Source: Hydrotalea sp.
Lineage (GTDB): Bacteria; Pseudomonadota; Alphaproteobacteria; JASGCL01
Reading direction: 5' to 3'
DNA: 57,073 nt
NCBI GenBank assembly: GCA_030054115.1
Contig: JASGCL010000007.1
Coordinates: forward strand, 1 to 57,073
Both the position numbers and the translations under genes were made by a program. The notes below the pieces were generated by a model. The model had not been told where the DNA came from. It was given only the letters and a program-made list of their open reading frames with translations, and searched no databases. Below are positions 802-57,073 of the stretch, in pieces. Position 1 is the stretch's first letter, and the number at the start of each line of letters is the position of its first letter.

Positions 802-1638
802 TTATATCAGCCAACCCGCCTCTTGCTTATATTCATCCATGTCTAATTGTTGCTGGCGTTGTTGTAACGGCAATTTATATTCGTCTTTAATTTTTCCGTC
901 ATTGGCCAATCGGTCAAGAATCATTTCGTAATATTCTTCGTTCAATTCACAAGAAATAAATTGTCGTAATAATTTTTTGCAAAGCACCAATTCGGAGCCG
1001 CTACCGCCAAACAAAATAAAAACCTTATCCTGTTCTTTGGTGCAGGATTTTATAAGCATTTCAACCAAGGGCAAGGGAATTTGGCAGGCGTGAAATGTTT
1101 TATCCTTTGAAACATTTTTAACAAGGTCGTAATAAAACCATGAATAGGGCATGCGGCCCAAATGGCCATCTTGAATCCTTTGTTGGATTCTTTTGTCATT
1201 TGGGTTTTGATAAGGGACGGCAATTGCGTCTTTGTAAAAATTATTATTTTTGCTTTTGGTGGCGTGCAAGATAGAACGATGCGCCGTCGTCAAGCGGCGC
1301 GGCGTATGGCCAACATTGGTGTTGTAAACCCAAACATAATCTTGCACGTCGTAGGCATTGTCGTCTAAAAATTTTACGCGCAGGTGGGCATTCTGCTTTG
1401 GGTAATTCATCATAAATAAATTGCCGGTTGGTTTTAACACGCGCAGGGATTCGCGGGTTAGTTCGATATACCACTCAATATATTCATCCCACTTTTTGGT
1501 ATAATCACTGCCGTGGTAATTGATGCCAACATTATAATCGGGGTCGCCGTAAACCAAGTCGAGCGATTCATCGGGCAGGCTTTTTAAAACCTTAATTACA
1601 TCGTCATTAAAAACGCGGTTAAAAGATAAATTTTGCAT
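802..1638 (-). CDS. beta-class N6-adenine/N4-cytosine DNA methyltransferase (N6_N4_Mtase type)
   Basis: Motif IV-like DPDY sits at the N-terminus (GDPDYNVG, nt 1534..1545). The AdoMet-binding motif I-like FGGSGS lies near the C-terminus, which is the beta-class circular permutation. The gene is directly downstream of a PD-(D/E)XK candidate. Confidence 0.85.
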   Translation of the reverse strand: MQNLSFNRVFNDDVIKVLKSLPDESLDLVYGDPDYNVGINYHGSDYTKKWDEYIEWYIELTRESLRVLKPTGNLFMMNYPKQNAHLRVKFLDDNAYDVQDYVWVYNTNVGHTPRRLTTAHRSILHATKSKNNNFYKDAIAVPYQNPNDKRIQQRIQDGHLGRMPYSWFYYDLVKNVSKDKTFHACQIPLPLVEMLIKSCTKEQDKVFILFGGSGSELVLCKKLLRQFISCELNEEYYEMILDRLANDGKIKDEYKLPLQQRQQQLDMDEYKQEAGWLI

Positions 1639-1643
1639 GATGG

Positions 1644-2453
1644 TTATTCGTGGATAAGATGATAGCTTGCTGATTTAATAAATTCTATTGAGCCCATGTC
1701 TTCTGGATTTTTAAAACGATAACACCACAAGTTGAGAATATTTGAAAGCTTGTCTTTGCGCGTAAGATAAACTGCGTAGATTTCTTTTAACGAACCATTT
1801 ACTTTCTCATCCTTCCTCGCTTGATGATAATAGTAGCAAGGATTAAATAATTGATAAATAGAGAAGTCTATCGGCGTGCCATTTTTGGCTTCAAACACCG
1901 CGACCACCCCTTGATATTCAATGGTTAAATCAATTTCCATCTGTAAGGATTTTTTTGTTTCAACCAATTGGTTATTTATTAAATAAGACATTTGGTATTT
2001 TGTCCGATGCGGAAAATAAGTCTTTGGTCTTTTTTTAATATCGGGATGATTAACATCGCAATTTTCACCAAAAACAAAATGGTGCAAAATCCTTTGATTG
2101 TTGGCAACCGATAACAGATTGCTTTCGCTTGTATTGTAATTATTTAACAAACTTTTTTGATATGGCCATTGGATTTGGTCATTTGTTAGTTCAAACGTAT
2201 GATATAAGTTATTTATACCATATACGAATTGATGATAGCCGCCCCCTAGATGAATCAATCCATAATTCATCTCCCGTAAAATAGGTGGCAATTTAGTTGA
2301 CGAATCTATTTTCGTGACGTCAAATTGATTGCTAAATGTTCCTTGAGAAATTTTTTTAACATCATCGTTATGAAAGACAAAATCGCCTTTCTTTTTACAA
2401 TCAGTAAATAATATCTCAATGATTTGTTTTTTGCTTAATTTTTTCTTAATCAT
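1644..2453 (-). CDS. putative type II restriction endonuclease (PD-(D/E)XK candidate), cognate to the methyltransferase
   Basis: It lies 5 nt upstream of the methyltransferase on the same strand. The segment EIDLTIEYQGVVAVFEAKNG fits D-x13-E-x-K. A strong Shine-Dalgarno AAGGAGGG (2459..2466) precedes it and the DNA is AT-rich. Specificity is unknown. Confidence 0.55.
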   Translation of the reverse strand: MIKKKLSKKQIIEILFTDCKKKGDFVFHNDDVKKISQGTFSNQFDVTKIDSSTKLPPILREMNYGLIHLGGGYHQFVYGINNLYHTFELTNDQIQWPYQKSLLNNYNTSESNLLSVANNQRILHHFVFGENCDVNHPDIKKRPKTYFPHRTKYQMSYLINNQLVETKKSLQMEIDLTIEYQGVVAVFEAKNGTPIDFSIYQLFNPCYYYHQARKDEKVNGSLKEIYAVYLTRKDKLSNILNLWCYRFKNPEDMGSIEFIKSASYHLIHE

Positions 2454-2500: not shown

Positions 2501-2576
2501 GTTTTAATTTAGGAGATAGTTGCATGCGCGTGGTTTGCCGCGCGAAATAAATAAAGAATCATGCTACATTTGTGGC

Positions 2577-3962
2577 ATGGTTAAGCAACCCCTGCCCGAT
2601 TTGTTTTCTATCATGGCGCCGACGCCGCGCGCCGGGCCCGACGCGCCGCGCTCAACCACAATAATGAATGACGCAACGCATGCCGCAACGAATGACGCAT
2701 CAGACAAGGCGGCCACCCGCGCCGCCGCAAACCCCGCCCCCAATGATTCGCCCGAACCGGTCGGGGTTATTTCGGCGCGGTTGAAATCGGCCATCGAACA
2801 GCAATTCGACCATGTGCGGGTGGTGGGCGAAATTTCCAGTTTTAAGCAAGCCCCGTCTGGCCATGGGTATTTTAATTTGAAAGACCCCGATGAAAAAGAA
2901 AAATCGGTGCTGAATTGTTTTTTGTTGAAACATAAATTTTCTTACTTGCCGTTCAAACCGGTCGAGGGCATGATGGTAGTGGCCACCGGAAAAATCAGCA
3001 CCTACGCCGCGCGGTCGAATTACCAATTATTCATCGACCGATTGGAATTGGCCGGCACCGGCAATTTGTTACAAATTTTGGCCGAACGCAAACAAAAACT
3101 ATTGGCCGAGGGTTTGTTCGACGCCGCGCGGAAAAAGCCCCTGCCGCCATTTCCCAAAACCATCGGCGTTATCACATCGCCGACCGGCGCGGTGATACGC
3201 GACATCATCCACCGCGTTACCGCGCGATTCCCCTGCCACGTTTTGCTTTACCCCGTGTTGGTCCAGGGCGAGGGCGCACCGGCCGATGTGTGCCGCGCCA
3301 TTGCCGCGATGAATCAATTGTCGGCGGGCGACGAACAATTCCCCCGCCCCGACGTGTTGATTATCGCGCGTGGTGGCGGCGCGTTAGAGGATTTATGGAC
3401 GTTCAACGAGGAAGCCGTGGTGCGTGCCGTCGCGGCCAGCACCATCCCCACTATTTCGGCCATCGGCCATGAAACCGACACCACCCTTATCGATTTTGCG
3501 GCCGACATGCGCGCCCCCACCCCGACCGCCGCGGCGGAAATCGCCCTGCCATTTTTATTGACCGATGTCTTGCAACAATTAAGCGACAGCCAAGCGCAAA
3601 TCGCCCGCGTCAGCCAACGCATGATAAACCAGTTTGAAAAAAACCTTGCCCATTGGCGGGCACGTATTTTATCCCCCGCCAATATCATTGCGCAAAAAAC
3701 CACCGCGTTAAATGTTGCGACCAACGATTTGCGGCAATGGCAAAAATATTTTTTTGCCGAACGCGGCGAAAAAATGGCAACCCTTGGCCGGTTATTGGAA
3801 TCGCTGTCTTATAAAAAAACATTGCAACGCGGTTACAGCATCGCGCGGCAACAGGGGGAAATTGTGTCGCGCAAATCGGCCATTGCGCCGCACCAATCGG
3901 TCGCGTTGGAATTTGCCGACGGCGAAATTAACTTGCCGCCAGCAACATCAAAAAGCGAATGA
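2577..3962 (+). CDS. xseA: exodeoxyribonuclease VII large subunit
   Basis: The OB-fold N-terminal region (RVVGEISSFKQAPSGHGYFNLKD) and the catalytic region (IARGGGALEDLWTFNEE, IGHETDTTL) are typical of XseA. The start is uncertain: TTG 2520, ATG 2577 or a later ATG. A low-complexity N-terminal extension is present. Confidence 0.9.
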   Translation: MVKQPLPDLFSIMAPTPRAGPDAPRSTTIMNDATHAATNDASDKAATRAAANPAPNDSPEPVGVISARLKSAIEQQFDHVRVVGEISSFKQAPSGHGYFNLKDPDEKEKSVLNCFLLKHKFSYLPFKPVEGMMVVATGKISTYAARSNYQLFIDRLELAGTGNLLQILAERKQKLLAEGLFDAARKKPLPPFPKTIGVITSPTGAVIRDIIHRVTARFPCHVLLYPVLVQGEGAPADVCRAIAAMNQLSAGDEQFPRPDVLIIARGGGALEDLWTFNEEAVVRAVAASTIPTISAIGHETDTTLIDFAADMRAPTPTAAAEIALPFLLTDVLQQLSDSQAQIARVSQRMINQFEKNLAHWRARILSPANIIAQKTTALNVATNDLRQWQKYFFAERGEKMATLGRLLESLSYKKTLQRGYSIARQQGEIVSRKSAIAPHQSVALEFADGEINLPPATSKSE

Positions 3963-4812: not shown

Positions 4813-5889
4813 ATGAGGTGTTTTTTACCATTGTTGGGCATGGGCCGTGCCATAATTTTTGCGATATTTGTCATAACCCAGCCCTCATCGCTCCATGCCC
4901 AAACTGGTGCAGAAACCAAGGCAACGCCCACCGCCGCACCCAATAACAGCGACAGCATCGCCGATAAGGGGATAAAATCGGTTGCCGACCAGGCCATCAC
5001 CCCGCCGGATTTTTTTCTGCGCGGCCAATTGCAACAGGGTGGATTCCTTATCGGCAAATTGCCCGATGTCAGCCGCGATAACCCGGGGGAAAAAATTGTC
5101 GCCGTTATTTATGGCGACCGGCATCTTACCCTGTCGCCGCCCATCAACCCCGCCACCGGCGCGGGCGACAAGCCTGCCTCTAATTCGGCCACCAAATCGG
5201 CCGCCAAATCAGCCAATGCTAGCACCAACGACGCGCGGGAATTTTTTATTGCCTTCGACCGAGAAGACCCAGCCGACCAACAAATAACCTTCGTCCTCAG
5301 CAATGGCAAAAAAATAACCGAAACATTTAAAATTAAACAATCGGTTTATGATATTCAACATGTCAACGGCGTCATGAACAAATATGTCAACCCCGACGCG
5401 GAACAAATCGACCTGATTAAAAAACAAAACGAGATGGTGGTTGCCCTACGCAAAACCAGCGATGAGACAAATTTTTCGCCGCTGGCGCAATTTATTTGGC
5501 CGGCCGAGGGGGAAATCAGCGGCATTTTCGGCAGTCAACGCGTGCTGAATGGCGAAGCGCGCAACCCCCATTACGGCGTCGACCTGGCGTTAAAAATTGG
5601 CACGCCGGTGCGCGCGCCACAAAGCGGTAAAATAATATTGGCGCAGAAATTTTTTCTGTCGGGCAACACCATGGTTATCGACCATGGCATCGGCGTGCAA
5701 TCGGTTTTCATGCACCTCGATAGTTTTAAGGTTAAGGAGGGCGATGTCGTGAAGCAAGGCCAATTGGTCGCGACATCGGGCAACACCGGCCGCACCACCG
5801 GCCCGCACTTGCATTGGCAGGTCAATTGGTATAGAAAAAAATTTAACGCGCAGTTTTTACCAAAAAATCAAAAGGTCGCAAAAAACTAA
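4813..5889 (+). CDS. M23 family metallopeptidase (secreted)
   Basis: HYGVDLA (HxxxD) and GPHLHW (HxH) motifs are present, and the N-terminus is signal-like (MRCFLPLLGMGRAIIFAIFVITQPSSLHA). I set the start at ATG 4813. The longer track ORF from 4525 runs antisense through the DUF1059 gene. Confidence 0.85.
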   Translation: MRCFLPLLGMGRAIIFAIFVITQPSSLHAQTGAETKATPTAAPNNSDSIADKGIKSVADQAITPPDFFLRGQLQQGGFLIGKLPDVSRDNPGEKIVAVIYGDRHLTLSPPINPATGAGDKPASNSATKSAAKSANASTNDAREFFIAFDREDPADQQITFVLSNGKKITETFKIKQSVYDIQHVNGVMNKYVNPDAEQIDLIKKQNEMVVALRKTSDETNFSPLAQFIWPAEGEISGIFGSQRVLNGEARNPHYGVDLALKIGTPVRAPQSGKIILAQKFFLSGNTMVIDHGIGVQSVFMHLDSFKVKEGDVVKQGQLVATSGNTGRTTGPHLHWQVNWYRKKFNAQFLPKNQKVAKN

Positions 5890-45292: not shown

Positions 45293-47662
45293 GTGGTCGC
45301 GATGAAACAAACCATCCAACCCAACACAGCTATTTTGTTGGCTATCGCGCCGGCGGTGTTTTTGGGCAGTGATACGTTGTTTGAACAGCTGGAACGGGTG
45401 GTTCTGACGCCCGATAATTTGTTCGACGCGCCGCTGGATAACCTGTTCGCGGGTGATGTGCTGGATAAATTTATAAAAAAAACCGCCGCGCCCGATAACG
45501 GCGCGCAATTTCCCTTGCCGTCTTTTTATGATTTTTTAACCCTTAGCCTATCGCACCTGCCCTACCTTGCGCCGCAACAATTGGTCGCCCTGCCGCAACG
45601 TTTTCCCTTGCCGCCAATAACCCAAGACAAAGCAACCAGCCGCAATAATAAAAAAAAATATCACCTTCTGCCCTTTCAAGAATCGCTTATCACGCGATGG
45701 TTGACGCCGCACCCGGCTGTCAACAAATTCTTAATCATCATGATGGCCGGGCTTATCATTCGCGCCTTCACCGCCATCGACCCGAAATCGATTATCGATG
45801 CCAAACCGCGCGCCGCGGTAACGCAATGGCGACGCCAAGCGATTGAACAATTGCGCCGCGTCGTCCAACAACGCATTGCCATGCCGCACCAATATTTATT
45901 GTTTGGCCGCGCCCATCAGATTTATCACTTAACCGCGCTCCACCAACAGCTCGCCCTCACCAACCTTGATAATTACGACCGTATCGAGGAATCACTCGCC
46001 GCATCGCATGGCCGGAAATTATCACCGCAGAAAATAAAAAACCTATTGCCGCATCGCTTGCCGGGCTCATTCTGGTTGCAAAAAAAACGCATCCATTATC
46101 ACCTGCTGGAATTGCAAACCCTGCCGCGCCAATTATGCCTGCCCCTGCCGTCGCCATTTTTAACCCTGGTCAATTTGGCCAGCCTGACCCATTGGTTAAT
46201 CAACGACACGGGCGAGGTGCCCGAACAAATTGTCCAAGACACCATCGACGATTGGCGGCAGGAATTATTAACTGCTATCGATGAAAAAAATCAAACGCGG
46301 CTTTATGACCATTACCCGGTGTATGGCGAGGTTTTGGAAAAAATTGACGGCCAATTAAAATCGATAAAAACCATAAAAATAAAAAAATCAAAGGCCGGTG
46401 CACCCAATTCACCACCGCGCGATAAAACGAACAATGATAAAACCATCCACCCCCTGACATTAAAGGATAACCGCTTTATTCTTTCGCTGGCCGGCGCCAA
46501 CGCCATCAAGCATAAAAAAGAAATAACCCACAACCCGCTCAACCTGATAACATATTTTCTCGGGTTTTTTACAACCCCGCCATCGCCATCATCTTATATT
46601 TTGCCGTGGCAGAAATCGGCCTTTGCCCTGCCGACCATCATAGGGGGAAAGCAAGCCTTGGCCAGCAATATCAGCAATCACTTGATGATGACGTTCGATG
46701 TTATCTTCAAAAAAAAATCCTTCATCGAATCGGGTGTTTGGCTGTCGCCCGAGCCACACAAAAAAAGATTATCAGCTCTGCTTGCCCTCCTGCCAAAAAT
46801 TGGCGCAAAAAATTGGACGAGCAATCTGGCAAAAAACATTTTGCGAAAACCCCGCCCGTCTCATTATTACATCGACAACAGCTTACAATTGGGCGGCAGT
46901 CCCCTTGCCCAACCAACGTCGCAAGCAACTGGCCAACCAACGGCTCGGCCAACGTTGCAACGAACCACCGCGTCGGCCAGCTATCTATTGCCGCGCCGCA
47001 TGACCTTGCGCAATCTTACAAATCCAATAAACCCGTTAAATCCCGGGGCATGGCGTTACATCCGCTGTCAGAAATTTTTATTACCGGCCGGCGATATGTT
47101 GTATAGCAAAAAAATTCTCAACCTGCCGCGCCGCCACGGCAACCGCACCATCAGCATCGAGCGACAACTTTTTATGCCGCGCCATAACCGCGACGCTGAC
47201 TCATCCTATGGCGGCGAAAAAAAGCCGCAGATTTATTTAAAAGCACAAGAAAAAATTATCGCCCCGGGCGGCATTGATTTTATGCTGTTGTTGCCGCTGT
47301 CGCCATCGATTAAGGCTTTCGGGCGGAGCGATTCGCTCATCCACGAATTGGAGCAACATTGGCAACGGCCGATGAAAAAAAACGACCTGCGGCCGCATGG
47401 CGGCGGCATTATCGAACCGCTCATCCCCCACGACAACCCCGATGATAATTTAAAAGATAAAATAGAATCCCTGCAGGAGGTTTTTTTGCAATCGCCCGAC
47501 AAACCGGGTGGCCGGTTGGTATCGCGCGGTGCAACATTGTCCCTGACCAAGGGGGTGTTCTTAAATGACTTTATGGAGGAACCCTGCCAGGTGATTATGC
47601 TGTCCGGCCAAACCACGCCGGGCGAGACCATCATCAATTGGGTGTTGGAATTGGTGGCGTAA
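45293..47662 (+). CDS. large hypothetical protein (789 aa; alternative ATG at 45302), no recognisable domain
   Basis: A long uninterrupted ORF with core-like base composition. It is Leu/Pro/Gln-rich, with a Lys-rich patch (IKTIKIKKSKAGAP) and a QPT-type low-complexity segment. I recognise no motifs. Confidence 0.6.
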   Translation: MVAMKQTIQPNTAILLAIAPAVFLGSDTLFEQLERVVLTPDNLFDAPLDNLFAGDVLDKFIKKTAAPDNGAQFPLPSFYDFLTLSLSHLPYLAPQQLVALPQRFPLPPITQDKATSRNNKKKYHLLPFQESLITRWLTPHPAVNKFLIIMMAGLIIRAFTAIDPKSIIDAKPRAAVTQWRRQAIEQLRRVVQQRIAMPHQYLLFGRAHQIYHLTALHQQLALTNLDNYDRIEESLAASHGRKLSPQKIKNLLPHRLPGSFWLQKKRIHYHLLELQTLPRQLCLPLPSPFLTLVNLASLTHWLINDTGEVPEQIVQDTIDDWRQELLTAIDEKNQTRLYDHYPVYGEVLEKIDGQLKSIKTIKIKKSKAGAPNSPPRDKTNNDKTIHPLTLKDNRFILSLAGANAIKHKKEITHNPLNLITYFLGFFTTPPSPSSYILPWQKSAFALPTIIGGKQALASNISNHLMMTFDVIFKKKSFIESGVWLSPEPHKKRLSALLALLPKIGAKNWTSNLAKNILRKPRPSHYYIDNSLQLGGSPLAQPTSQATGQPTARPTLQRTTASASYLLPRRMTLRNLTNPINPLNPGAWRYIRCQKFLLPAGDMLYSKKILNLPRRHGNRTISIERQLFMPRHNRDADSSYGGEKKPQIYLKAQEKIIAPGGIDFMLLLPLSPSIKAFGRSDSLIHELEQHWQRPMKKNDLRPHGGGIIEPLIPHDNPDDNLKDKIESLQEVFLQSPDKPGGRLVSRGATLSLTKGVFLNDFMEEPCQVIMLSGQTTPGETIINWVLELVA

Positions 47663-47670
47663 AATAATTT
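47658..47670. repeat. left copy of the 13-bp direct repeat CGTAAAATAATTT flanking island B
   Basis: An identical 13-mer occurs at 48764..48776. The left copy contains the stop codon of the 789-aa ORF. Confidence 0.7.
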
Positions 47671-48083
47671 TAGAAAATGATTCCTTGTTTTTGGTAAGTT
47701 AATTTTATAGCTGTTCTATGCGCAGGTATTATGTTTTGATGTGCAGGATTTTGTATTTTCTTATGTATATTAATTAAAATATTATTATCTTTAATTTGAC
47801 CTTTTTTTTCCCATAGCTTGATTTTATCAATATCAGAAACAAAAATTTGTTTAGAATTTACACAACAACGTTCCGCAAAACCAAAATCGCCTTGATTAAA
47901 TAATATACATTCTGGTTCAAAGTGTTGATGCTTATCGACTTGGGTTGTAGTGGTTATCAACAACCCTTTGTTAAATTTTTCTAAAATGCCAACAAAAATA
48001 AACCATCGAGCATATCCGCTGGACGGTGGCGAAACCAAGCGCATATCCAGCTCGCTAGGCTTTATAATTTCACCAACGAGCAT
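47670..48083 (-). CDS. unassigned 137-aa protein, candidate toxin partner of the Panacea-domain gene (possibly a MazF/PemK-like fold)
   Basis: Its ATG overlaps the upstream stop as TAATG, and the DNA is AT-rich. A by-eye alignment to the PemK/MazF pattern is possible (GEII..., hydrophobic strand, LLITTTTQ compared with the ITS motif, CVNSKQIFVSDIDKI, KGQI). This is an unverified inference. Confidence 0.45.
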   Translation of the reverse strand: MLVGEIIKPSELDMRLVSPPSSGYARWFIFVGILEKFNKGLLITTTTQVDKHQHFEPECILFNQGDFGFAERCCVNSKQIFVSDIDKIKLWEKKGQIKDNNILINIHKKIQNPAHQNIIPAHRTAIKLTYQKQGIIF

Positions 48084-48616
48084 TATCTTGTTTCTAAATA
48101 AGCGTAATAATTCTCTGGAACATCCTTTTCAAACTCATCAATATATTTCATTTGAGCGCGCTTCACCGCCGCACCTCGATTTTTCCATGCTTTAGACCAT
48201 GCTTTAATTTCTTCGTGAGCTACTTCTATGTAGCTTTCGGTAGCTTTCTTTTGAAGCAAGAACAGCCAGTTATCAATAATTTTTTGCTGGCTTTTTGAAA
48301 TATAATCCATGTCAGGCTCGCCTATATTTTCTATCAATTTTGAATCTTTATAACCGCTAATAACTTTATATTGATTTGTTCCATTATTAACTTTTATTTC
48401 ATCATATAAAGACGATGGAACGGGGCCATTTTGCAGGGCATAATAATCGCCAATATCAAGCGCAGGAACGCCAACCTCTCTAAGATGTTGAAAATCATAA
48501 AGAGCTAATAATTTATATAATTTCATTGAAGTAATATGCTCGTTATGTTGAGCCTTATACTCTTTTGCAATATAACAAATTATATTATTAAGGATAAATC
48601 TTTTATATTCGTTCAT
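48083..48616 (-). CDS. Panacea (DUF4065, SocA/GepA-like) domain protein, candidate antitoxin
   Basis: ITSMKLYKLLALYDFQHLREVGVPALDIGDYYALQNGPVPSSLYDEI fits the DUF4065 core pattern (KLqKLLY...w.hGPV.p.vY). It is the first gene of a two-gene overlapping pair. Confidence 0.6.
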   Translation of the reverse strand: MNEYKRFILNNIICYIAKEYKAQHNEHITSMKLYKLLALYDFQHLREVGVPALDIGDYYALQNGPVPSSLYDEIKVNNGTNQYKVISGYKDSKLIENIGEPDMDYISKSQQKIIDNWLFLLQKKATESYIEVAHEEIKAWSKAWKNRGAAVKRAQMKYIDEFEKDVPENYYAYLETR

Positions 48617-48644
48617 TTTTTTGTTCTATATAATAGTTAAATAT

Positions 48645-48659
48645 AGATATATTATATCT
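48645..48659. promoter_or_regulatory. perfect 15-bp palindrome AGATATATTATATCT upstream of the Panacea-domain gene (candidate operator)
   Basis: It lies 29-43 nt upstream of the start at 48616. On the minus strand it contains TATAAT. Confidence 0.3.
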
Positions 48660-48763
48660 TTTTATAGACAAATTCGTCTAAAAAAACAATAAAAATCCGA
48701 AAAAACACAATTTTTGTTAATAGCTGTATATTTTATATTATGACAGCCAGCAATTTTTTCATT

Positions 48764-48776
48764 CGTAAAATAATTT
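48764..48776. repeat. right copy of the 13-bp direct repeat CGTAAAATAATTT flanking island B
   Basis: Identical to 47658..47670. It overlaps the cysE stop codon (48775..48777). Confidence 0.7.
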
Positions 48777-49488
48777 ATTTTATTTTGCCTTCTAACTCGG
48801 CGATGCGTTTTTGCAATAGTTTTATTTCTTGCAACAATGGGTCGGCGCCGGCCGCGGTTGTGCTCGGCGTGCCATAGGCGGAGAAGGAATCTTTCTGCGC
48901 CCCTTTATCCGATAATTTTTCCACCACCTTGGCCGGAATGCCCACCACCGTGGTATATGGCGGCACGTCGCGCACCACCACCGCGTTGGCACCAACCCGC
49001 GCGCCCTGGCCCACCGTAATTGGCCCCAAAATCTGCGCCCCCGAACCGACGATAACATTATCGCCCAGCGTCGGGTGGCGTTTTTGGTTGCGTTGGGTTT
49101 CGGCATTAACCGACGGTGATACCCCGCCGAGTGTAACATCGTGATACAAGGTTACATCATCGCCAATTATCGCGGTTTCACCAATCACCACCCCCATGCC
49201 GTGGTCGATAAAAAACCTTTTGCCAATTTTTGCCGCCGGGTGGATTTCAATCCCACTCCAAATACGGACAAACAGCACAATTAATTTTGGCAAAAATTTT
49301 AAATGGCAACGCCACAACAGGTGGTTCAAGCGGTGCATCTTCACCGCATGGTAATTGTGGAACAGCAAGATAACCTCCAACCGGCCGCGCGCCGCCGGGT
49401 CGCGGGCGATAATACTATCGACCTCTTGGAACAGCCACCAAAGAAATTTTTTACGCGGTTTTTTTTCTGCGCTACGTGATTTTTTCAT
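48775..49488 (-). CDS. cysE: serine O-acetyltransferase
   Basis: Hexapeptide-repeat core IEIHPAAKIGKRFFIDHGMGVVIGETAIIGDDVTLYHDVTLGG. Confidence 0.9.
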   Translation of the reverse strand: MKKSRSAEKKPRKKFLWWLFQEVDSIIARDPAARGRLEVILLFHNYHAVKMHRLNHLLWRCHLKFLPKLIVLFVRIWSGIEIHPAAKIGKRFFIDHGMGVVIGETAIIGDDVTLYHDVTLGGVSPSVNAETQRNQKRHPTLGDNVIVGSGAQILGPITVGQGARVGANAVVVRDVPPYTTVVGIPAKVVEKLSDKGAQKDSFSAYGTPSTTAAGADPLLQEIKLLQKRIAELEGKIK

Positions 49489-49707
49489 CGCCGCACCATC
49501 CTTTTATATTATTGATTTCGTTACAAATCCTCGATTCATCCTGTAGCTTTATTACCGATTGAAAGCAATAGTAACAATCGCCTGCGATTCTCAACGCCTT
49601 ATGGTTGATTAAGCCGTAAATGCCAAAAGCTATAAAAAACCTTGCCAAAAAAATATGGCTATTCTATAACAAAAATCTGTAACGCAAGGAAGAAAGGTTA
49701 TCCCACC

Positions 49708-50445
49708 ATGTTAGAAGTTGTGATTTATGGGCCGGAGGGCCGATTGGAAGGTCGCTATATGCCGGGTTTGAAACTTGACTCGCCCTGCGCCGTGTTGTTT
49801 CACCCCAACCCCGAACAGGGCGGCACCATGAACAACAAGGTTATTTTTAACCTTTTCCATTGTTTTGTTAAGCAAGGCTTCCATGTGTTGCGTTTTAATT
49901 TTCGTGGTGTCGGCAAGTCCGAGGGCACCTTTGCCAAGGGCGAGGGCGAATTGACCGACGCCGCCGCGGTGCTGGATTGGATGCAACAGCACCACACCCA
50001 AAGTCGCCGTTTTTGGATAGCCGGTTTTTCGTTTGGCGCGTGGATCGCGCTCCAGCTTTTGATGCGCCGCCCCGAAATTTTTCGTTTTATCGCGGTCGCG
50101 CCACCGGTCAATCTTTATGATTTTTCGTTCCTTGCCCCCTGCCCGACCTCGGGTTTAATTTTGCAGGGCTCGGCCGATAGCATCGTCCCCTACCAAGACC
50201 AAGAAAAACTGGTCAGCAAATTACAAAGCCAAAAGGGTATCAACATTCAATATGAATTGGTGAAACGCGCCGACCATTTTTTCAGCAACAACATGGCGGC
50301 CTTGCAACGCCTCAGCAACCAATATATCGCCCAAGAAAACGCCATCGAGGAGGTTTTTGCCCCACCGCCCGATGTGATGGATAACGAGGACGATTATTAC
50401 GAACAACTCCATAAAGAAACCAGCGATAATGACGATGACGATTAA
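49708..50445 (+). CDS. alpha/beta hydrolase (COG2945-like)
   Basis: GPEGRLEGRY...FHPNPEQGGTMNNKV...RFNFRGVGKSEG and the nucleophile elbow GFSFGA are present. An acidic C-terminal tail follows. I set the start at ATG 49708, with AAGGAAGAAAGG upstream. Confidence 0.75.
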   Translation: MLEVVIYGPEGRLEGRYMPGLKLDSPCAVLFHPNPEQGGTMNNKVIFNLFHCFVKQGFHVLRFNFRGVGKSEGTFAKGEGELTDAAAVLDWMQQHHTQSRRFWIAGFSFGAWIALQLLMRRPEIFRFIAVAPPVNLYDFSFLAPCPTSGLILQGSADSIVPYQDQEKLVSKLQSQKGINIQYELVKRADHFFSNNMAALQRLSNQYIAQENAIEEVFAPPPDVMDNEDDYYEQLHKETSDNDDDD

Positions 50446-50603
50446 TATTGTCAGGCTTTCTACGGCGTCGCTATCCCCCTCCCCTGGCATGTTAACAACC
50501 ATGCGCATCGGCCATTACCAACCAGCCAAACATTATAACCAACTGACCTAGTGCAAAAAAAGCGCGCGGTTGTGTTTTGGCAAGAATCGCCGTAAACACC
50601 GCG

Positions 50604-53462
50604 ATGGATAAAAAATATAACATGAGCAAAAAAGAAAACGACAGCAACAAAGGCAAAACTGCCGACGGCAAGGATATTATCCCCTCGGTCGGCATGGGCG
50701 GCGGCATGGTGCAGGGGATTTCGCCCATCGCCCTGGGCGATGAAATGAAAAAAAGCTACATGGAATATGCTATGAGCGTGATTGTCGCCCGCGCCCTGCC
50801 CGATGTGCGCGATGGTTTAAAACCGGTGCACCGCCGTATTCTTTACGCCATGAATGAAAATGGTTACGATTGGTCAAAACCATTTCGCAAATCGGCGCGT
50901 ATCGTGGGGGAGGTCATGGGTAAATACCACCCGCACGGCGACCAATCGATTTATGATTCGATGGTGCGCATGGCGCAGGATTTCTCACTCCGCCTGCCGC
51001 TTATCGCCGGCCAGGGGAACTTCGGCTCGCTCGATGGTGACCCACCGGCGGCGATGCGCTATACCGAGGCACGGCTCGCCAAGTCGGCCGAAACATTGCT
51101 GACCGATATCGACAGCGACACGGTCGATTTCGGCACCAATTACGACGATTCAATGCCCGAACCGTTTGTTTTGCCGGCGCGGATTCCGAACCTGCTGGCC
51201 AATGGCGCGTCGGGCATCGCGGTGGGCATGGCGACCAATATCCCGCCGCATAATTTGGGCGAGCTGTTGCGTGCCCTTATCGCGCTGGTCAATAATCCGC
51301 AACTTTCTGACGATGAAATTAAAAAAATTGTCCCGGGCCCCGATTTCCCAACCGGCGGTTTGATTATGGGGCGCGAGGGCATCGACCAATCATTTGCCAC
51401 CGGTCGCGGTTCGATTAAAATGCGCGGCCGCGCCACGATTGAAACATTCGGCAAGGACCGCGAGATGATTGTCATCACCGAGGTGCCATACCAAGTCAAC
51501 AAGGCAACGATGATAGAAAAAATGGCCGAGCTGGTGCAGAATAAGGTCATCGAAGGGGTCAGCGACATCCGCGATGAATCTGACCGCACTGGCGTGCGCG
51601 TCGTATTGGAAATTAGAAAGGACGCCACGGCGCAGGTCATATTGCAACAGCTGTATAAATTTTCGCCGCTCGAAACCAGTTTTGGCGTCAACATGTTATC
51701 GCTGAACAATGGCCTGCCCGAAATGTTGCCAGTGCCGCGCGTCCTGCATCGGTTTGTCGAATTCCGTGATGAGGTTATCCAACGGCGTAGCCGGTTTTTG
51801 CTGGGCAAGGCGCGGGCGCGGGCGCATATCGTTGCCGGCCTTATCATCGCCACCGACAATATCGATGAAATGATTGCGATGATAAAATCATCGAAGGACG
51901 CCGAGGAAGCGCGGGTAAAAATGACAACCAAGCAATGGTCGGCCGACGCCGTGGTGCCATTTTTAAAATTGATAGACAAGGCCGATAAGAACCTCGCCGG
52001 CACAAAATACAAATTGAGCGACGAGCAGGCGCGCGCTATTCTTGACCTGCGCCTGCAACGCCTCACCGCGCTGGAAAAAGACAAATTGGGCAACGAGATG
52101 AAGGAATTGTCGGATAACATCAACGCCTATGAAAAACTATTGGCCGATGAAGCCGCGCGCCGTGCCGTAATGGTCAAGGAGTTTGAAGAATCGCTGGCGG
52201 CCTTCGCCACGCCGCGCCGCACCGCCATCGTCGCCAAGCAAGAGGATGTGGAAATAACCGACCTGATTGAGAAGGAAGACATGATGGTCAGCGTTACCTA
52301 CGGCGGTTACATCAAGCGCGTGCCGCTCGATTCCTATCGCACGCAAAAACGCGGCGGCAAGGGCAAAATGGGCATGACGACTAAGGAAGATGATTTCGTG
52401 TGGAAGGTTTTTGTCGCCGACACCCACACCGACATGCTGTTTTTTTCGTCGAGCGGTCGGTGCTACAAATTAAAAGTCTACGAAATCCCCGAGAGTTCGA
52501 TGGCCAGCAAGGGCAAGTCCTTGGTCAATATCTTGCCGTTGGCGGCGCGCGAACGCATCACCACGGTGCTCGCCCTGCCAACCGACAGCAAGGATTGGGA
52601 AGATAAATTCATGGTGTTTGCCACGGCGTCGGGTTATGCGCGGCGCAACCTGCTGTCGGATTTTGCCGACGAGCGCAAGGCCGGCAAGGTCGCAATGAAA
52701 TTGGACGACGGCGATAGTTTGGTTGGCGTGTTGATAGCCTCGGCCGAGCAAGATATTTTCCTCGCCACCGAACAATCATCGGCCATTCGCTTCCCGATTT
52801 CGCGGCAGAGCGAAGACGGCGATGAAAAGGGCGTGCGGGTTTTTTCTGGCCGTGCGTCCAACGGCGTAACGGCTATCAAATTAGCAAGCGGCGACCGCGT
52901 GGTGGCGATGGATATTATGAATCGCGGCGAAGAAGATTCCGAAAAACGCGATGGTTACTTGGCGGTTGCCAATGCCAAGGCGCGATTAAAGGACAAGGAT
53001 TACGCCGCGTCTGGGTCGGAGGATGCAACCCGCGACAAGGCCAAGGTGGCAGAATTCGATAAAACATTATTCAGCAAAATGGCGGCCGAGGAACAATTTG
53101 TCCTGACCATCAACGAGGCGGGGTTTGGCCAATTATGTTCGTCATATGATTACCGCACCACCAACCGCGGCGGCAAGGGTATCAGCAACATGGATAGCGG
53201 CAGTAAAATTATCGACGCCTTCCTTATCAGCCCGAAAGATGACGAGGTGATGATTGTTACCGACGGCGGGCAAACCATCCGTATCCACACCAAATCAATC
53301 CGCCGCGTGTCGCGCAACGCCAAGGGCGTGAAATTAGCTAGCCTGGACAGCGAACAAAAAATTGCCTCGGTCGCCCATATTAGTTATATTGGCGAAGAAG
53401 AAATTGAAAACGACAGCGACGATAAGGGCGACAACCAACCCAGCGCGAAGCCAACCGAATAA
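50604..53462 (+). CDS. gyrA: DNA gyrase subunit A
   Basis: [37 protein letters not shown] and the active-site [10 protein letters not shown] are present, followed by C-terminal beta-pinwheel repeats. The start is uncertain (TTG 50577, ATG 50604 or ATG 50622). Confidence 0.93.
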
Positions 53463-55498: not shown

Positions 55499-56989
55499 TT
55501 ATCTGCCATAGATTATTATGGGATCTACATGTTTTATAACATCTTCAGGCAAGCCCCAACTTTTATACATTGTCCTAATAAAGGCAATAAATATAATTTC
55601 GACTAAATTGCTAATATCTTTCTCGCTAATTATATTCTTATTTTTTTTATATTGCGCTCGACTTTTAGAACTGTTTGGGCTGTAATGAGAAAATAAATTT
55701 CTAACTTCTTTAATATAGCGTCCAATGTTTTCTAATTTTTTATCTTCAGAAATATTATTAAAATCCTGTAAATTATTTAAAATATTAATAAATTCTTTTG
55801 TTAAATCATCATCCCTTTTAAGTATTTTGCTAAAAAATATATTCGGGATATTTTTATCATCACCCTTCGATTTTTCCCAGTTCGATTTTTCCCACTGCTC
55901 AATTGCGGCAAAAAATAAAACTATCTCTTGGTAACATTTGTAAATGCTACCACCCTCAATATAATAATTGCTTATATGATTATATAAAACCTTTATAACA
56001 AGATTATAATCTTGTTCATAAAAATCCACCCATTGACTAAAAATTTTCTGAAAGTTTTCTTTCATATGTTTATTATCTAAAAAGTAATTATGCTGTCTTA
56101 TTTCTCCTTTTTTTATATCATTAATTATATTTTTAGAATTTGTGATATTAAAAATAACAGAGTATTTTTCTTTGTCATTATGTAGAATAATTTCTATAGG
56201 CCTAGATATTTTTAAAATTAAAAAAGTAAAAAAACTCCGCAAGTTAAATATTAATTCTTTGTATTCATCGAATGTCGCGGTTTCCTTTTCTAGAAATAAA
56301 TAGCAATGTTCTTCTTGCATAATATCAAGGCGGAATTCATTATGTTTGTCTAAAATTGGTATAATCGCATTTGCTAATTCATCCTTAAATTCTTCTTTTC
56401 CCACAAACTCTTGCTTTAAATTAATTTTAGAATAAGATTTGACTTTGCCAAAACCTCTTAAAAGCTCAATTTTAAAACCATTTGAGTTTATAGAAAAAAT
56501 TTGTTTCTCTAGATAGTGTGTTTTATGGGGCGCGTCTAAAAACGCCTTATCTAAATAAGCAAGATTAAATTGGCATTTCTGAAAGGATTGTTCTTTATCA
56601 ATATGTCCCCCAAATAAAATCGCATCACAAAAAATATATTCATTAAAAAGATAAACAATATTTTTAATAGATACGAGCGTAATCTTTAGTCCGTCCATAA
56701 AAGATGTATTGCCAAAAGTAAAAAGCGTACCGAACATCACATCAATATTAAATTGAAATGTATTTTCATTTTGGCTGACATAAGCAGATGTTCTACTAAA
56801 ATGATTGGATTTTTGATTGTTATGAATTTTATCATACAATTCTTTTATATGCGTTGGTTGTATTAACTCAAATCTAATACCTTTTTCAGGGTTATATTTT
56901 AGCAACCCAAAAAACTTTTTATCTTCCTTGTCGGGGAACCAGAACTCTCCCTTGCCCTCATAAGATTCTAAGGCGTTAAAATTTTGCAT
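55499..56989 (-). CDS. ApeA-like protein with a C-terminal HEPN (Rx4H) motif, candidate abortive-infection/defence RNase
   Basis: The N-terminus GKGEFWFPDKEDKKFFGLLKYNPEKGIRFEL matches the ApeA N-terminal-domain pattern as I recall it. The C-terminal RNLFSH motif (nt 55685..55702) fits HEPN R[N]xxxH. The gene is strongly AT-rich. I set the start at ATG 56989 rather than the track GTG at 57046. Confidence 0.55.
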   Translation of the reverse strand: MQNFNALESYEGKGEFWFPDKEDKKFFGLLKYNPEKGIRFELIQPTHIKELYDKIHNNQKSNHFSRTSAYVSQNENTFQFNIDVMFGTLFTFGNTSFMDGLKITLVSIKNIVYLFNEYIFCDAILFGGHIDKEQSFQKCQFNLAYLDKAFLDAPHKTHYLEKQIFSINSNGFKIELLRGFGKVKSYSKINLKQEFVGKEEFKDELANAIIPILDKHNEFRLDIMQEEHCYLFLEKETATFDEYKELIFNLRSFFTFLILKISRPIEIILHNDKEKYSVIFNITNSKNIINDIKKGEIRQHNYFLDNKHMKENFQKIFSQWVDFYEQDYNLVIKVLYNHISNYYIEGGSIYKCYQEIVLFFAAIEQWEKSNWEKSKGDDKNIPNIFFSKILKRDDDLTKEFINILNNLQDFNNISEDKKLENIGRYIKEVRNLFSHYSPNSSKSRAQYKKNKNIISEKDISNLVEIIFIAFIRTMYKSWGLPEDVIKHVDPIIIYGR

Positions 56990-56995
56990 TTTTAT

Positions 56996-57024
56996 AATAT
57001 AAAGAGATTCACTAATAGTAGCAA
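56996..57024 (-). promoter_or_regulatory. promoter candidate for the ApeA-like gene (TTGCTA-17 nt-TATATT)
   Basis: The minus strand reads TTGCTACTATTAGTGAATCTCTTTATATT, then 6 nt, then ATG. The spacer ends with GAATCTCTT (57002..57010). No Shine-Dalgarno is present, so the arrangement is leaderless-like. Confidence 0.35.
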
Positions 57025-57073
57025 TACCGGTTCCAGGCCACGGCACTTGATTTTCGGGTCAAGTTTGCTTATC

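What the first reader, a model, noticed from the sequence alone, without database searches (positions are those of the whole stretch)
47658..48776. AT-rich two-gene cassette: Panacea/DUF4065 antitoxin-like gene coupled to an unassigned 137-aa partner (candidate novel toxin-antitoxin or defence module)
Two overlapping genes on the minus strand (TAATG junction at 48083) sit in a visibly AT-rich 1.1-kb block. The block is wedged between the convergent 3' ends of two core-composition genes.

The upstream 177-aa product carries what I read as the Panacea (DUF4065, SocA/GepA) core. Panacea domains are known as promiscuous antitoxin modules that pair with many unrelated toxin families.

I cannot assign the downstream 137-aa protein to a family. 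It can be threaded by eye onto a MazF/PemK-like pattern, but that is weak. If it is not a known PanT family, the pair would be a new toxin class neutralised by a Panacea antitoxin.
Basis: partly seen in the sequence, partly recalled or inferred. Interest (0 to 1): 0.75.

Follow-up and report, generated by a model that had tools for sequence, protein, structure and literature searches.

The report
Inserted Panacea toxin-antitoxin cassette, orphan toxin
A 1.1-kb AT-rich piece of foreign DNA, slotted exactly between two housekeeping genes, carries a known type of toxin-antitoxin pair (a Panacea-domain antitoxin plus a small partner protein); the partner is almost unique in public databases but looks like a very diverged MazF-type RNA-cutting toxin, so this is a rare member of a known kind, not a new kind of system.

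Summary
Two minus-strand genes, 48083-48616 (177 aa) and 47670-48083 (137 aa), share an ATAATG junction. They sit in a block of 31% GC in a window of 48% GC, between convergent core genes. The 177-aa protein is a genuine Panacea/PF13274 protein (42.8 bits; cutoff 25.7).

The 137-aa protein matches no Pfam, NCBIfam or PHROGs family. Searches of 5.8 and 1.84 billion proteins found no relatives. One homolog (47% identical) turned up by gene context: it lies directly downstream of the only close PanA homolog (57% identical over the full-length alignment) on an unrelated metagenome contig. So the pairing is conserved.

A custom MazF/EndoA profile aligns residues 43-111 in register, including the strand that carries the catalytic Thr. 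Empirical p is about 0.001-0.005, which is suggestive and not proof. AlphaFold2 without an alignment failed (pLDDT 40-42). Panacea antitoxins paired with HHpred-only MazF-like toxins, in this gene order and with this overlap, are already published (Kurata 2022, clusters T5/T6).

New here: a perfect 13-nt direct repeat bounds the 1106-bp insert. In a sister sample, contig ends fall exactly on the repeat edges, which implies a coexisting empty-site allele.

Verdict: a PanAT-type toxin-antitoxin cassette with a rare PanT family; moderate-to-low interest.

The parts
48083..48616 (-). panA: 177-aa stand-alone Panacea-domain antitoxin candidate. It has no HTH, PAD1 or ZBD accessory domain. A 37-aa C-terminal tail lies beyond the Pfam match.
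   Evidence: PF13274 SocA_Panacea, E 1.1e-10, 42.8 bits against a cutoff of 25.7, residues 33-140. phrog_1281, E 7e-17. NCBIfam SocA equivalog scores only 31 bits against a cutoff of 190. 57% identical to the full-length L001:4941-5477 protein over the whole alignment; its shorter database call P0003 is 56% identical.
47670..48083 (-). panT: 137-aa toxin candidate. It is an orphan sequence family and possibly a very divergent MazF/PemK-fold RNase. Motifs invariant in both known members: R26-W, GLLITTTT (40-47), EPxCILF, GDFGF, CCxNxxQIF, DKIKxWxKKGxI.
   Evidence: No Pfam, NCBIfam or PHROGs hit. Only itself in 5.8 billion and 1.84 billion protein searches. 47% identical to the ORF downstream of the L001 panA. 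Custom MazF/EndoA HMM: 8.9 bits, residues 43-111; 1 of 2000 shuffles and 1 of 334 real-protein chunks reach it. hhalign P = 9e-4.
48617..48763 (-). 19%-GC leader carried by the cassette. The best promoter-like site is TAGACG-18 nt-TATAAT at 48680..48651. Two palindromes overlap it: TAGACgaatttGTCTA (48680..48665) and AGATATAaTATATCT (48659..48645).
   Evidence: The total count of promoter-like sites does not exceed shuffles (7 found, 6.1 expected), so function is inferred only.
47658..47670 (.). Left copy of the 13-nt perfect direct repeat CGTAAAATAATTT. It overlaps the stop codon of the 789-aa gene and contributes the first base of the panT stop codon.
   Evidence: the repeat finder family D3, spacing 1106 nt. 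0 of 2000 shuffles of the two junction zones give a shared 13-mer.
48764..48776 (.). Right copy of the 13-nt direct repeat. It overlaps the stop codon of the cysE-like gene.
   Evidence: The sister-sample contig L088 starts exactly at 48764, and L003 spans 47641-48793. Every end is 30 nt (k-1) anchored on a repeat edge.

Best explanation
The block is a horizontally acquired, self-contained PanAT-type (type II-like) toxin-antitoxin cassette of 1106 bp. It was inserted into what was a 6-nt spacer between the convergent stop codons of a cysE-like gene and a 789-aa gene. A 13-nt target sequence was duplicated, so both host genes stay intact.

The cassette brings its own AT-rich leader with a promoter-like site (inferred). 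panA and panT are translationally coupled through the ATAATG overlap (shown by sequence).

PanA is a stand-alone Panacea domain. It most likely neutralises PanT by direct protein-protein binding, as shown for other stand-alone PanAs (inferred from the literature).

PanT is most likely a highly diverged MazF/PemK-fold endoribonuclease that arrests translation when freed from PanA. I put the MazF fold at about 50%. I put the pair being a genuine toxin-antitoxin or abortive-infection module of the PanAT kind at about 75%.

The cassette appears to be present in some cells and absent in others of the source population. This is inferred from where assembly contigs break.
For: Antitoxin and pairing:
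- The Panacea domain scores above Pfam's curated cutoff.
- The gene order antitoxin then toxin with a 1-nt overlap matches the predominant PanAT layout. It also matches clusters T5/T6, the MazF-like PanTs, in Kurata 2022.
- The pair is conserved on an unrelated contig. In L001, panA 4941-5477 is followed after 6 nt by a panT homolog at 5484-5822. Identities are 57% and 47%, the flanks differ (Mrr-type nucleases, an alcohol dehydrogenase), and the N-termini align from the Met.
- 33-40% of the codons that encode identical residues differ synonymously, so the proteins are under constraint.

MazF link:
- I built an HMM from 63 real viral-contig EndoA homologs plus 6 reference MazF sequences. All 6 references are confirmed PF02452 members.
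- PanT scores 8.9 bits and the L001 PanT 4.9 bits. 1 and 9 of 2000 shuffles reach these scores. 1 and 3 of 334 real non-MazF chunks reach them.
- Both proteins align to the same profile columns, 47 to about 105. ITTTT falls on the strand that carries the catalytic Thr. FGFAERCCVNSKQIF falls on YGFERDSVILLEQIR. DKIKL falls on DKQRL.
- hhalign gives P = 9e-4, and 1 of 200 column shuffles reaches the score.
- BLASTP gives a colinear alignment of residues 6-100 with EndoA 2-98.
- The low-confidence AF2 strand order fits a small beta-barrel.

Insertion:
- GC is 0.31 in the cassette and 0.48 in the window.
- A perfect 13-nt direct repeat sits at both composition boundaries.
- Contigs from SRR23378605 end exactly k-1 = 30 nt across each repeat edge. 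This is what a de Bruijn graph branch gives when an empty-site allele is also present.
Against: - No toxicity or neutralisation data exist.
- PanT gives no hit to Pfam PemK_toxin even at E <= 10 and none to any PDB sequence.
- The first hhalign run, against a 6-sequence MazF alignment, was not significant (28 of 300 shuffles).
- The N-terminal 42 residues, where the catalytic Arg should lie, do not align to the profile. R26 is matched by eye only.
- The two PanT sequences are related, so their scores are not independent tests.
- AF2 gave pLDDT 40-42, and Foldseek found no MazF-like match.
- Three invariant cysteines (C59, C73, C74) have no MazF counterpart.
- Pair conservation rests on a single additional locus.
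- The empty-site allele is inferred from contig ends and was not observed.
Confidence: 0.6

Rival explanations
1. This is a PanAT module whose toxin has a truly new fold or mechanism. On this reading PanT is unrelated to MazF, and the weak profile similarity reflects convergent beta-strand patterns.
For: - No curated family or PDB sequence matches PanT.
- There are no relatives in 1.84 billion representative proteins.
- The MazF signal covers only residues 43-111 at 5-9 bits with an hhalign probability of 23%.
- The invariant CC and GDFGF motifs are not MazF features.
- 41 PanT clusters in Kurata 2022 also lack any assignment.
Against: - Three different null models (residue shuffles, column shuffles, real proteins) each put the MazF match at p of about 0.001-0.005 for a hypothesis stated in advance.
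- The alignment is colinear and places conserved PanT motifs on conserved MazF elements.
- The MazF fold is among the most frequent PanT and NetFlax toxin folds.
Confidence: 0.27
2. The pair is not a toxin-antitoxin system. It is a remnant or cargo of a phage or other mobile element, in which a GepA/Panacea-like protein sits next to a non-toxic small protein. Alternatively it is a decaying module that no longer functions.
For: - PanA's best family match outside Pfam is a phage protein family of unknown function (phrog_1281).
- About half of the DUF4065 proteins in Kurata 2022 are not in TA-like loci, and several predicted PanTs were not toxic in E. coli.
- The cassette is foreign DNA.
Against: - Both ORFs are intact in DNA rich in stop-codon triplets.
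- The pair and its tight coupling are kept at 47-57% identity in a different genomic context.
- No other phage genes lie nearby.
- tblastn against 50,697 phage genomes finds nothing for PanT.
Confidence: 0.1
3. This is a SocAB-like type VI system. On this reading PanA is not an inhibitor; it is a ClpXP adaptor that keeps PanT levels low by delivering it for degradation.
For: SocA is the founding Panacea protein. NCBIfam's SocA model gives a weak partial match (E 1.4e-7).
Against: - The score is 31 bits against a curated equivalog cutoff of 190.
- PanT matches nothing in NCBIfam. I did not check whether that library contains a SocB model.
- Every PanA tested in Kurata 2022 formed a stable complex with its toxin, which indicates direct neutralisation (abstract).
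Confidence: 0.03

Closest known systems
PanAT systems with EndoA/PemK/MazF-like PanT (toxin clusters T5 and T6 of Kurata et al. 2022, PNAS, PMC8832971; for example the validated Pseudomonas moraviensis PanAT)
   Same: - The antitoxin is a stand-alone Panacea domain with no N-terminal accessory domain.
- The order is antitoxin then toxin, with a -1/-4 overlap.
- The toxin is a small protein of about 110-140 aa with no hit in domain databases.
- The toxin's MazF relation shows only in profile-profile comparison.
- The system sits on the chromosome and is horizontally mobile.
   Different: - Those clusters reach HHpred probabilities above 99%. Here the best values are hhalign 23% and P of about 1e-3.
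- This PanT family has only two known members, carries invariant Cys-Cys and GDFGF motifs, and has a 25-aa C-terminal tail.
MazEF / PemIK (Kid-Kis) type II toxin-antitoxin systems (Pfam PF02452 toxins)
   Same: - The likely toxin fold and effect: an SH3-like barrel RNase that blocks translation.
- A bicistronic, translationally coupled operon with the antitoxin first.
   Different: - The antitoxin is a Panacea domain, not an AbrB/MazE-fold DNA-binding protein.
- No PF02452 match.
- The region holding the catalytic Arg does not align.
SocAB (Caulobacter crescentus, type VI toxin-antitoxin system)
   Same: The antitoxin belongs to the same Pfam family (SocA_Panacea).
   Different: - It is not a SocA ortholog (31 bits against a cutoff of 190).
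- The partner gives no NCBIfam match of any kind.
- The neutralisation mechanism probably differs.

Membership tests
PanAT (Panacea-containing toxin-antitoxin pairs, as defined by Kurata et al. 2022) | One partner carries the Panacea/DUF4065 domain (PF13274) | tested here: met
   42.8 bits against a gathering score of 25.7, E 1.1e-10, profile positions 1-112 of 113
PanAT (Panacea-containing toxin-antitoxin pairs, as defined by Kurata et al. 2022) | Two-gene locus with at most 100 nt between the genes, and no longer conserved operon | tested here: met
   1-nt overlap. The flanking genes are unrelated core genes, and one of them lies on the opposite strand. In L001 the spacer is 6 nt.
PanAT (Panacea-containing toxin-antitoxin pairs, as defined by Kurata et al. 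2022) | [quoted passage not shown] | tested here: met
   One further locus, the minimum. ENA scaffold L001 carries panA and panT homologs at 57% and 47% identity in a different neighbourhood. No third example was found in any collection.
PanAT (Panacea-containing toxin-antitoxin pairs, as defined by Kurata et al. 2022) | The toxin arrests growth, and the cognate PanA neutralises it and binds it | not testable with these tools
   Needs expression assays and pull-downs
MazF/PemK toxin family (PF02452; CcdB/PemK clan) | Significant sequence-profile match to the family | tested here: inconclusive
   Pfam hmmscan gives no hit at E <= 10. A custom 69-sequence EndoA/MazF HMM gives 8.9 and 4.9 bits, with empirical p of about 0.0005-0.005. 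hhalign gives probability 23%, P = 9e-4. An earlier run against a 6-sequence profile was not significant.
MazF/PemK toxin family (PF02452; CcdB/PemK clan) | SH3-like beta-barrel fold with a C-terminal helix | tested here: inconclusive
   Single-sequence AF2 gave pLDDT 40-42, and Foldseek found no meaningful match.
MazF/PemK toxin family (PF02452; CcdB/PemK clan) | Catalytic Arg on strand beta2 and Thr/Ser on strand beta3 (EndoA R25 and T48; from my own knowledge of the B. subtilis MazF structure) | tested here: inconclusive
   The profile column for T48 aligns with T46 of the invariant TTTT run in both homologs. R26 is invariant, but its region does not align to the profile.
SocA antitoxin (NCBIfam NF047745, equivalog) | Score at or above the curated equivalog cutoff | tested here: not met
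   31.3 bits against 190
Dsr1 / SIR2 defence proteins (PADLOC PDLC04166) | Reproducible match to the profile | tested here: not met
   14.4 bits over 58 of 1227 profile positions for the window PanT only. The L001 homolog gives no hit. I treat this as chance similarity.

The most novel reading that the evidence does not exclude
PanT founds a new toxin fold or mechanism. It would be a cysteine-containing small protein with invariant GLLITTTT, GDFGF and CCxNxxQIF motifs, neutralised by a stand-alone Panacea domain. The cassette would move by precise insertion and excision at a 13-nt repeat without encoding any recombinase. It would then be a minimal mobile toxin-antitoxin unit, caught while still polymorphic in a natural population.
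Probability: 0.25. Interest if true: 0.55.

Novelty: new member of a known kind. Interest (0 to 1): 0.33.

Why it matters
This adds one more partner to the Panacea antitoxin network, which is already known to be hyperpromiscuous. It is a very rare partner: two members among roughly 15 billion predicted proteins.

If PanT is a MazF derivative, it marks an extreme of sequence divergence for that fold. It could also help define what a stand-alone Panacea domain recognises.

The most useful by-product is the clean insertion anatomy. The 1106-bp cassette has 13-nt flanking repeats, and both neighbouring stop codons are preserved. Assembly evidence points to a coexisting empty site. Together these offer a natural case for studying how recombinase-less toxin-antitoxin cassettes enter and leave chromosomes.

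None of this changes current understanding of toxin-antitoxin biology.

Tried and rejected
Searches for PanT relatives that found nothing real:
- The word-indexed 5.8-billion-protein search, with the single sequence and with the 2-sequence profile, returned only the query itself.
- Exhaustive phmmer against 1.84 billion representatives gave two hits. Both are tandem-repeat, eukaryote-like proteins scored over 4-7 stretches, and I judge them spurious.
- PDB sequence searches found nothing useful.
- Scans of genome, metagenome and viral contigs found nothing. The single genome hit lies inside a 631-aa TPR/OmpA-type protein and was seeded by the pattern IDKIKLW; I judge it spurious.
- tblastn against plasmids and phages found nothing.
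- A DNA motif scan for GDFGFxxxCCxN in viral contigs found nothing.

Searches with the PanA profile:
- Scans of metagenome and viral contigs found nothing.
- The only annotated-collection hits are a Sinorhizobium replicon listed in the plasmid collection (29% identity) and a rodent-gut phage (24%).
- The Sinorhizobium locus has a 122-aa ORF downstream, overlapping by GTGA. By eye it looked like PanT, but it shows no significant similarity to PanT or to MazF, so I dropped it.

Structure:
- Two single-sequence AF2 runs, on the full-length protein and on residues 1-115, gave pLDDT 40 and 42.
- Foldseek on both models gave only noise.

Other leads dropped:
- The weak PADLOC Dsr1 hit was not reproduced by the homolog.
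- The upstream leaders of the two loci align poorly, and no better than AT-rich composition would explain. I therefore make no claim of a conserved operator.
- I looked for an empty-site contig through exact-protein look-ups of the neighbouring genes. Only the same organism in two sister runs is on record.
Full report
**1. The observation**

The window has two minus-strand ORFs, 48083..48616 (177 aa) and 47670..48083 (137 aa). Their junction reads AGATAATGCTC, so the TAA stop of the first gene and the ATG of the second share one base.

GC falls to 0.21-0.39 between about 47600 and 48800. It is about 0.45-0.59 on both sides. The cassette as a whole is 0.306 GC and the window 0.483.

- On the left, a 789-aa ORF on the + strand ends at 47662. 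It has no Pfam match.
- On the right, a hexapeptide-repeat acyltransferase (CysE-like) on the - strand ends at 48775.

The description is therefore accurate. In DNA of this composition, 137 and 177 stop-free codons have chance probabilities of 5e-6 and 1e-7.

**2. The upstream gene**

The 177-aa protein matches PF13274 (SocA_Panacea) over nearly the whole model: 42.8 bits against a gathering score of 25.7, E 1.1e-10. It also matches phage family phrog_1281 (E 7e-17).

It is not a SocA ortholog, because the NCBIfam equivalog scores 31 bits against a cutoff of 190. No accessory domain was detected, so it is a stand-alone PanA with a 37-residue C-terminal tail.

**3. The downstream gene is nearly unique**

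The 137-aa protein has no Pfam, NCBIfam or PHROGs match.

- The word-indexed search of 5.8 billion proteins returned only the protein itself. A 2-sequence profile did the same.
- Exhaustive phmmer over 1.84 billion cluster representatives returned the protein itself plus two tandem-repeat proteins. Those were scored over several weak stretches, and I regard them as spurious.
- PDB sequences, plasmids, phages, viral contigs, metagenome contigs and GTDB genomes gave nothing real.

**4. The pairing is conserved**

PanA has one close relative in the protein database, P0003 (56% identity). It lies on ENA metagenome scaffold L001.

- Extending that gene to the upstream in-frame ATG at L001:4941 gives an N-terminus that aligns with the window protein from the first Met.
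- Six bases after its stop codon, an ORF begins that runs off the contig end. Its 113 residues are 47% identical to the window's 137-aa protein, again from the first Met (E 2e-36).
- The neighbourhood is unrelated to the window's: two Mrr-type nuclease genes and an alcohol dehydrogenase.
- A third to two-fifths of the codons that encode identical residues differ synonymously.

This meets the published operational criteria for a PanAT locus (a Panacea partner, a gap of at most 100 nt, and conservation in at least two taxa), though only with the minimum number of examples.

**5. Is PanT a MazF-like protein?**

All six were then confirmed as PF02452 members. hhalign against the 2-sequence PanT alignment gave an in-register alignment but P = 0.014. 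A column-shuffle control was not significant (28 of 300).

*Deeper profile.* I fetched 80 real EndoA/MazF homologs from viral contigs and built a 69-sequence profile.

- With hmmsearch --max, PanT scores 8.9 bits and the L001 homolog 4.9 bits. 1 and 9 of 2000 composition-matched shuffles reach these values.
- Against real proteins cut into 137-residue chunks, 1 and 3 of 334 non-MazF chunks reach them.
- hhalign against the deeper alignment gives probability 23%, P = 9e-4 and score 25. One of 200 column shuffles reaches it, and the reversed query scores 14.9.

*What aligns.* Both homologs align to the same profile columns.

| PanT element | MazF/EndoA element |
|---|---|
| invariant ITTTT | "aaiTs" strand that carries the catalytic Thr of EndoA |
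| EPxCILF | "lPtHvel" |
| FGFAERCCVNSKQIF | YGFERDSVILLEQIR |
| DKIKLWEKKGQI | DKQRLTDKITHL |

*Other comparisons.*

- BLASTP against EndoA gives a colinear 22%-identity alignment over PanT 6-100, which is not significant on its own (E 0.35).
- Smith-Waterman z-scores reach 3.6-5.0 against one mycobacterial MazF and 4.0 against EndoA for the L001 homolog. They are near zero against E. coli MazF, Kid and CcdB.

*What does not fit.*

- The N-terminal 42 residues do not align to the profile. The match of the invariant R26 to the catalytic Arg is therefore by eye only.
- Structure prediction could not decide. Without an alignment, AF2 gave pLDDT 40 (full length) and 42 (residues 1-115), with an all-beta strand order compatible with a small barrel. 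Foldseek returned noise.

I put the MazF-fold reading at about 50%.

**6. What is already known**

Kurata et al. 2022 (PMC8832971) defined PanAT.

- They found 88 PanT clusters, 41 of them with no domain hit.
- Antitoxin-first order predominates (943 loci against 325).
- They validated PanTs from Pseudomonas moraviensis and Bifidobacterium ruminantium. Those have no CDD hit but look EndoA/PemK/MazF-like by HHpred, and they inhibit protein synthesis.
- Their Dataset S1 lists the MazF-like clusters T5 and T6 with PanAs lacking N-terminal domains, order A|T, and overlaps of -4 and -1. That is the layout seen here.

Ernits et al. 2023 (PMC10440598) showed that a stand-alone Panacea domain can neutralise its toxin by direct contact. 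They also found MazF/PemK among the commonest toxin folds in the network.

An unassignable PanT next to a PanA is therefore expected, not surprising.

**7. Anatomy of the insertion (new here)**

The longest perfect direct repeat in the region is CGTAAAATAATTT, at 47658-47670 and 48764-48776, spaced 1106 nt apart. It sits exactly at the two composition boundaries. No shared 13-mer appears in 2000 shuffles of the two junction zones.

Removing one repeat copy and the cassette would leave the two convergent stop codons 6 nt apart. The insertion therefore preserved both host genes.

The cassette encodes no recombinase, and I found no terminal inverted repeats.

In the sister run SRR23378605, the assembly breaks this locus into separate contigs.

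- One contig spans window 47641-48793.
- Another starts at 48764.
- Each of these three ends lies exactly 30 nt from an inner repeat edge, counted across the repeat. Thirty is k-1 for the k=31 de Bruijn assembly used by Logan (my own knowledge of that resource).
- A 13-nt repeat cannot by itself break a k=31 graph.

The simplest explanation is that the same sample also holds an allele that leaves the shared sequence exactly at the repeat edges. That would be the empty site. In SRR23378604 the contig runs straight through the cassette. This is an inference from contig coordinates; reads were not examined.

**8. Regulatory region**

The 147-nt leader is 19% GC. It holds the best sigma-70-like site of the region, TAGACG-18 nt-TATAAT at 48680..48651. 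Two palindromes overlap it.

The number of such sites does not exceed the shuffle expectation. The L001 leader aligns no better than its composition allows. I therefore treat the promoter as plausible and make no claim of an operator.

**9. Context**

The host looks like an alphaproteobacterium: a PopZ/DUF2497 gene is present, together with class A RNase P RNA.

The window holds two more AT-rich islands carrying defence-type genes.

- An ApeA-family gene at 55499..57046, at about 26% GC.
- A DNA methylase paired with a DUF6996/DUF6997 protein at 802..2453.

Small AT-rich accessory modules between core genes are therefore a recurring feature of this genome.

**10. Verdict**

The block is a PanAT-type toxin-antitoxin cassette acquired by horizontal transfer. 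Its toxin belongs to a sequence family with only two known members. That family is probably, but not provably, a very divergent MazF/PemK derivative. It is a new member of a known kind.

Interest is moderate to low. It is raised slightly by the rarity of PanT and by the unusually clean, apparently polymorphic, repeat-bounded insertion.

Noticed in passing
window 55499-57046 (- strand), AT-rich zone from about 55480 to the window end: A 515-aa protein with an ApeA N-terminal domain (PF18862, E 1.3e-15) lies in the most AT-rich part of the window (about 26% GC), next to a core rluD-like pseudouridine synthase gene. It is probably another horizontally acquired single-gene defence insert. Its right boundary lies beyond the window.
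   Followed up: partly
window 802-2453 (- strand): An AT-rich island (GC below 0.42) carries an N6/N4 DNA methylase (PF01555) followed by a DUF6996/DUF6997 protein. It is probably a restriction-modification pair, and it sits beside xseA (2520-3962).
   Followed up: partly
window 45293-47662 (+ strand): A 789-aa ORF of core-like composition has no Pfam match at all, and its sequence has Pro/Thr/Gln-rich stretches. Its stop codon lies inside the left copy of the 13-nt repeat.
   Followed up: no
L001 4324-4851: A second Panacea-like gene (44% identical to the window PanA) lies immediately upstream of the panA-panT pair. It has no toxin of its own and no Pfam hit on record. It could be an orphan or 'anti-addiction' antitoxin paralog. 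Two Mrr_cat nuclease genes lie nearby.
   Followed up: partly
L003 (= window 47641-48793) and L088 (= window 48764-50945), Logan run SRR23378605: The contig ends fall exactly 30 nt across the edges of the 13-nt repeat. This implies an assembly-graph branch there, and so a coexisting allele without the cassette, or with different content at that site.
   Followed up: partly
L005 2303-3399 (Sinorhizobium sp. M103, record pM103a in the plasmid collection, 3.5 Mb): An unannotated Panacea-like gene (29% identical to the window PanA) has a 122-aa ORF downstream that overlaps it by GTGA. That ORF has no family match and no detectable similarity to the window PanT. It may be another unassigned PanAT pair.
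   Followed up: partly
L006 2501-2878 (bajarodcaudo virus 4, PQ006095.1): A stretch with weak Panacea-like similarity (24% identity) lies in an unannotated gap of a phage genome, just upstream of a 255-aa hypothetical protein whose weak profile hits suggest a membrane protein.
   Followed up: no
window 48645-48680: Two perfect palindromes, TAGACgaatttGTCTA and AGATATAaTATATCT, overlap the -35 and -10 hexamers of the cassette's best promoter-like site, although this PanA has no recognisable DNA-binding domain.
   Followed up: no
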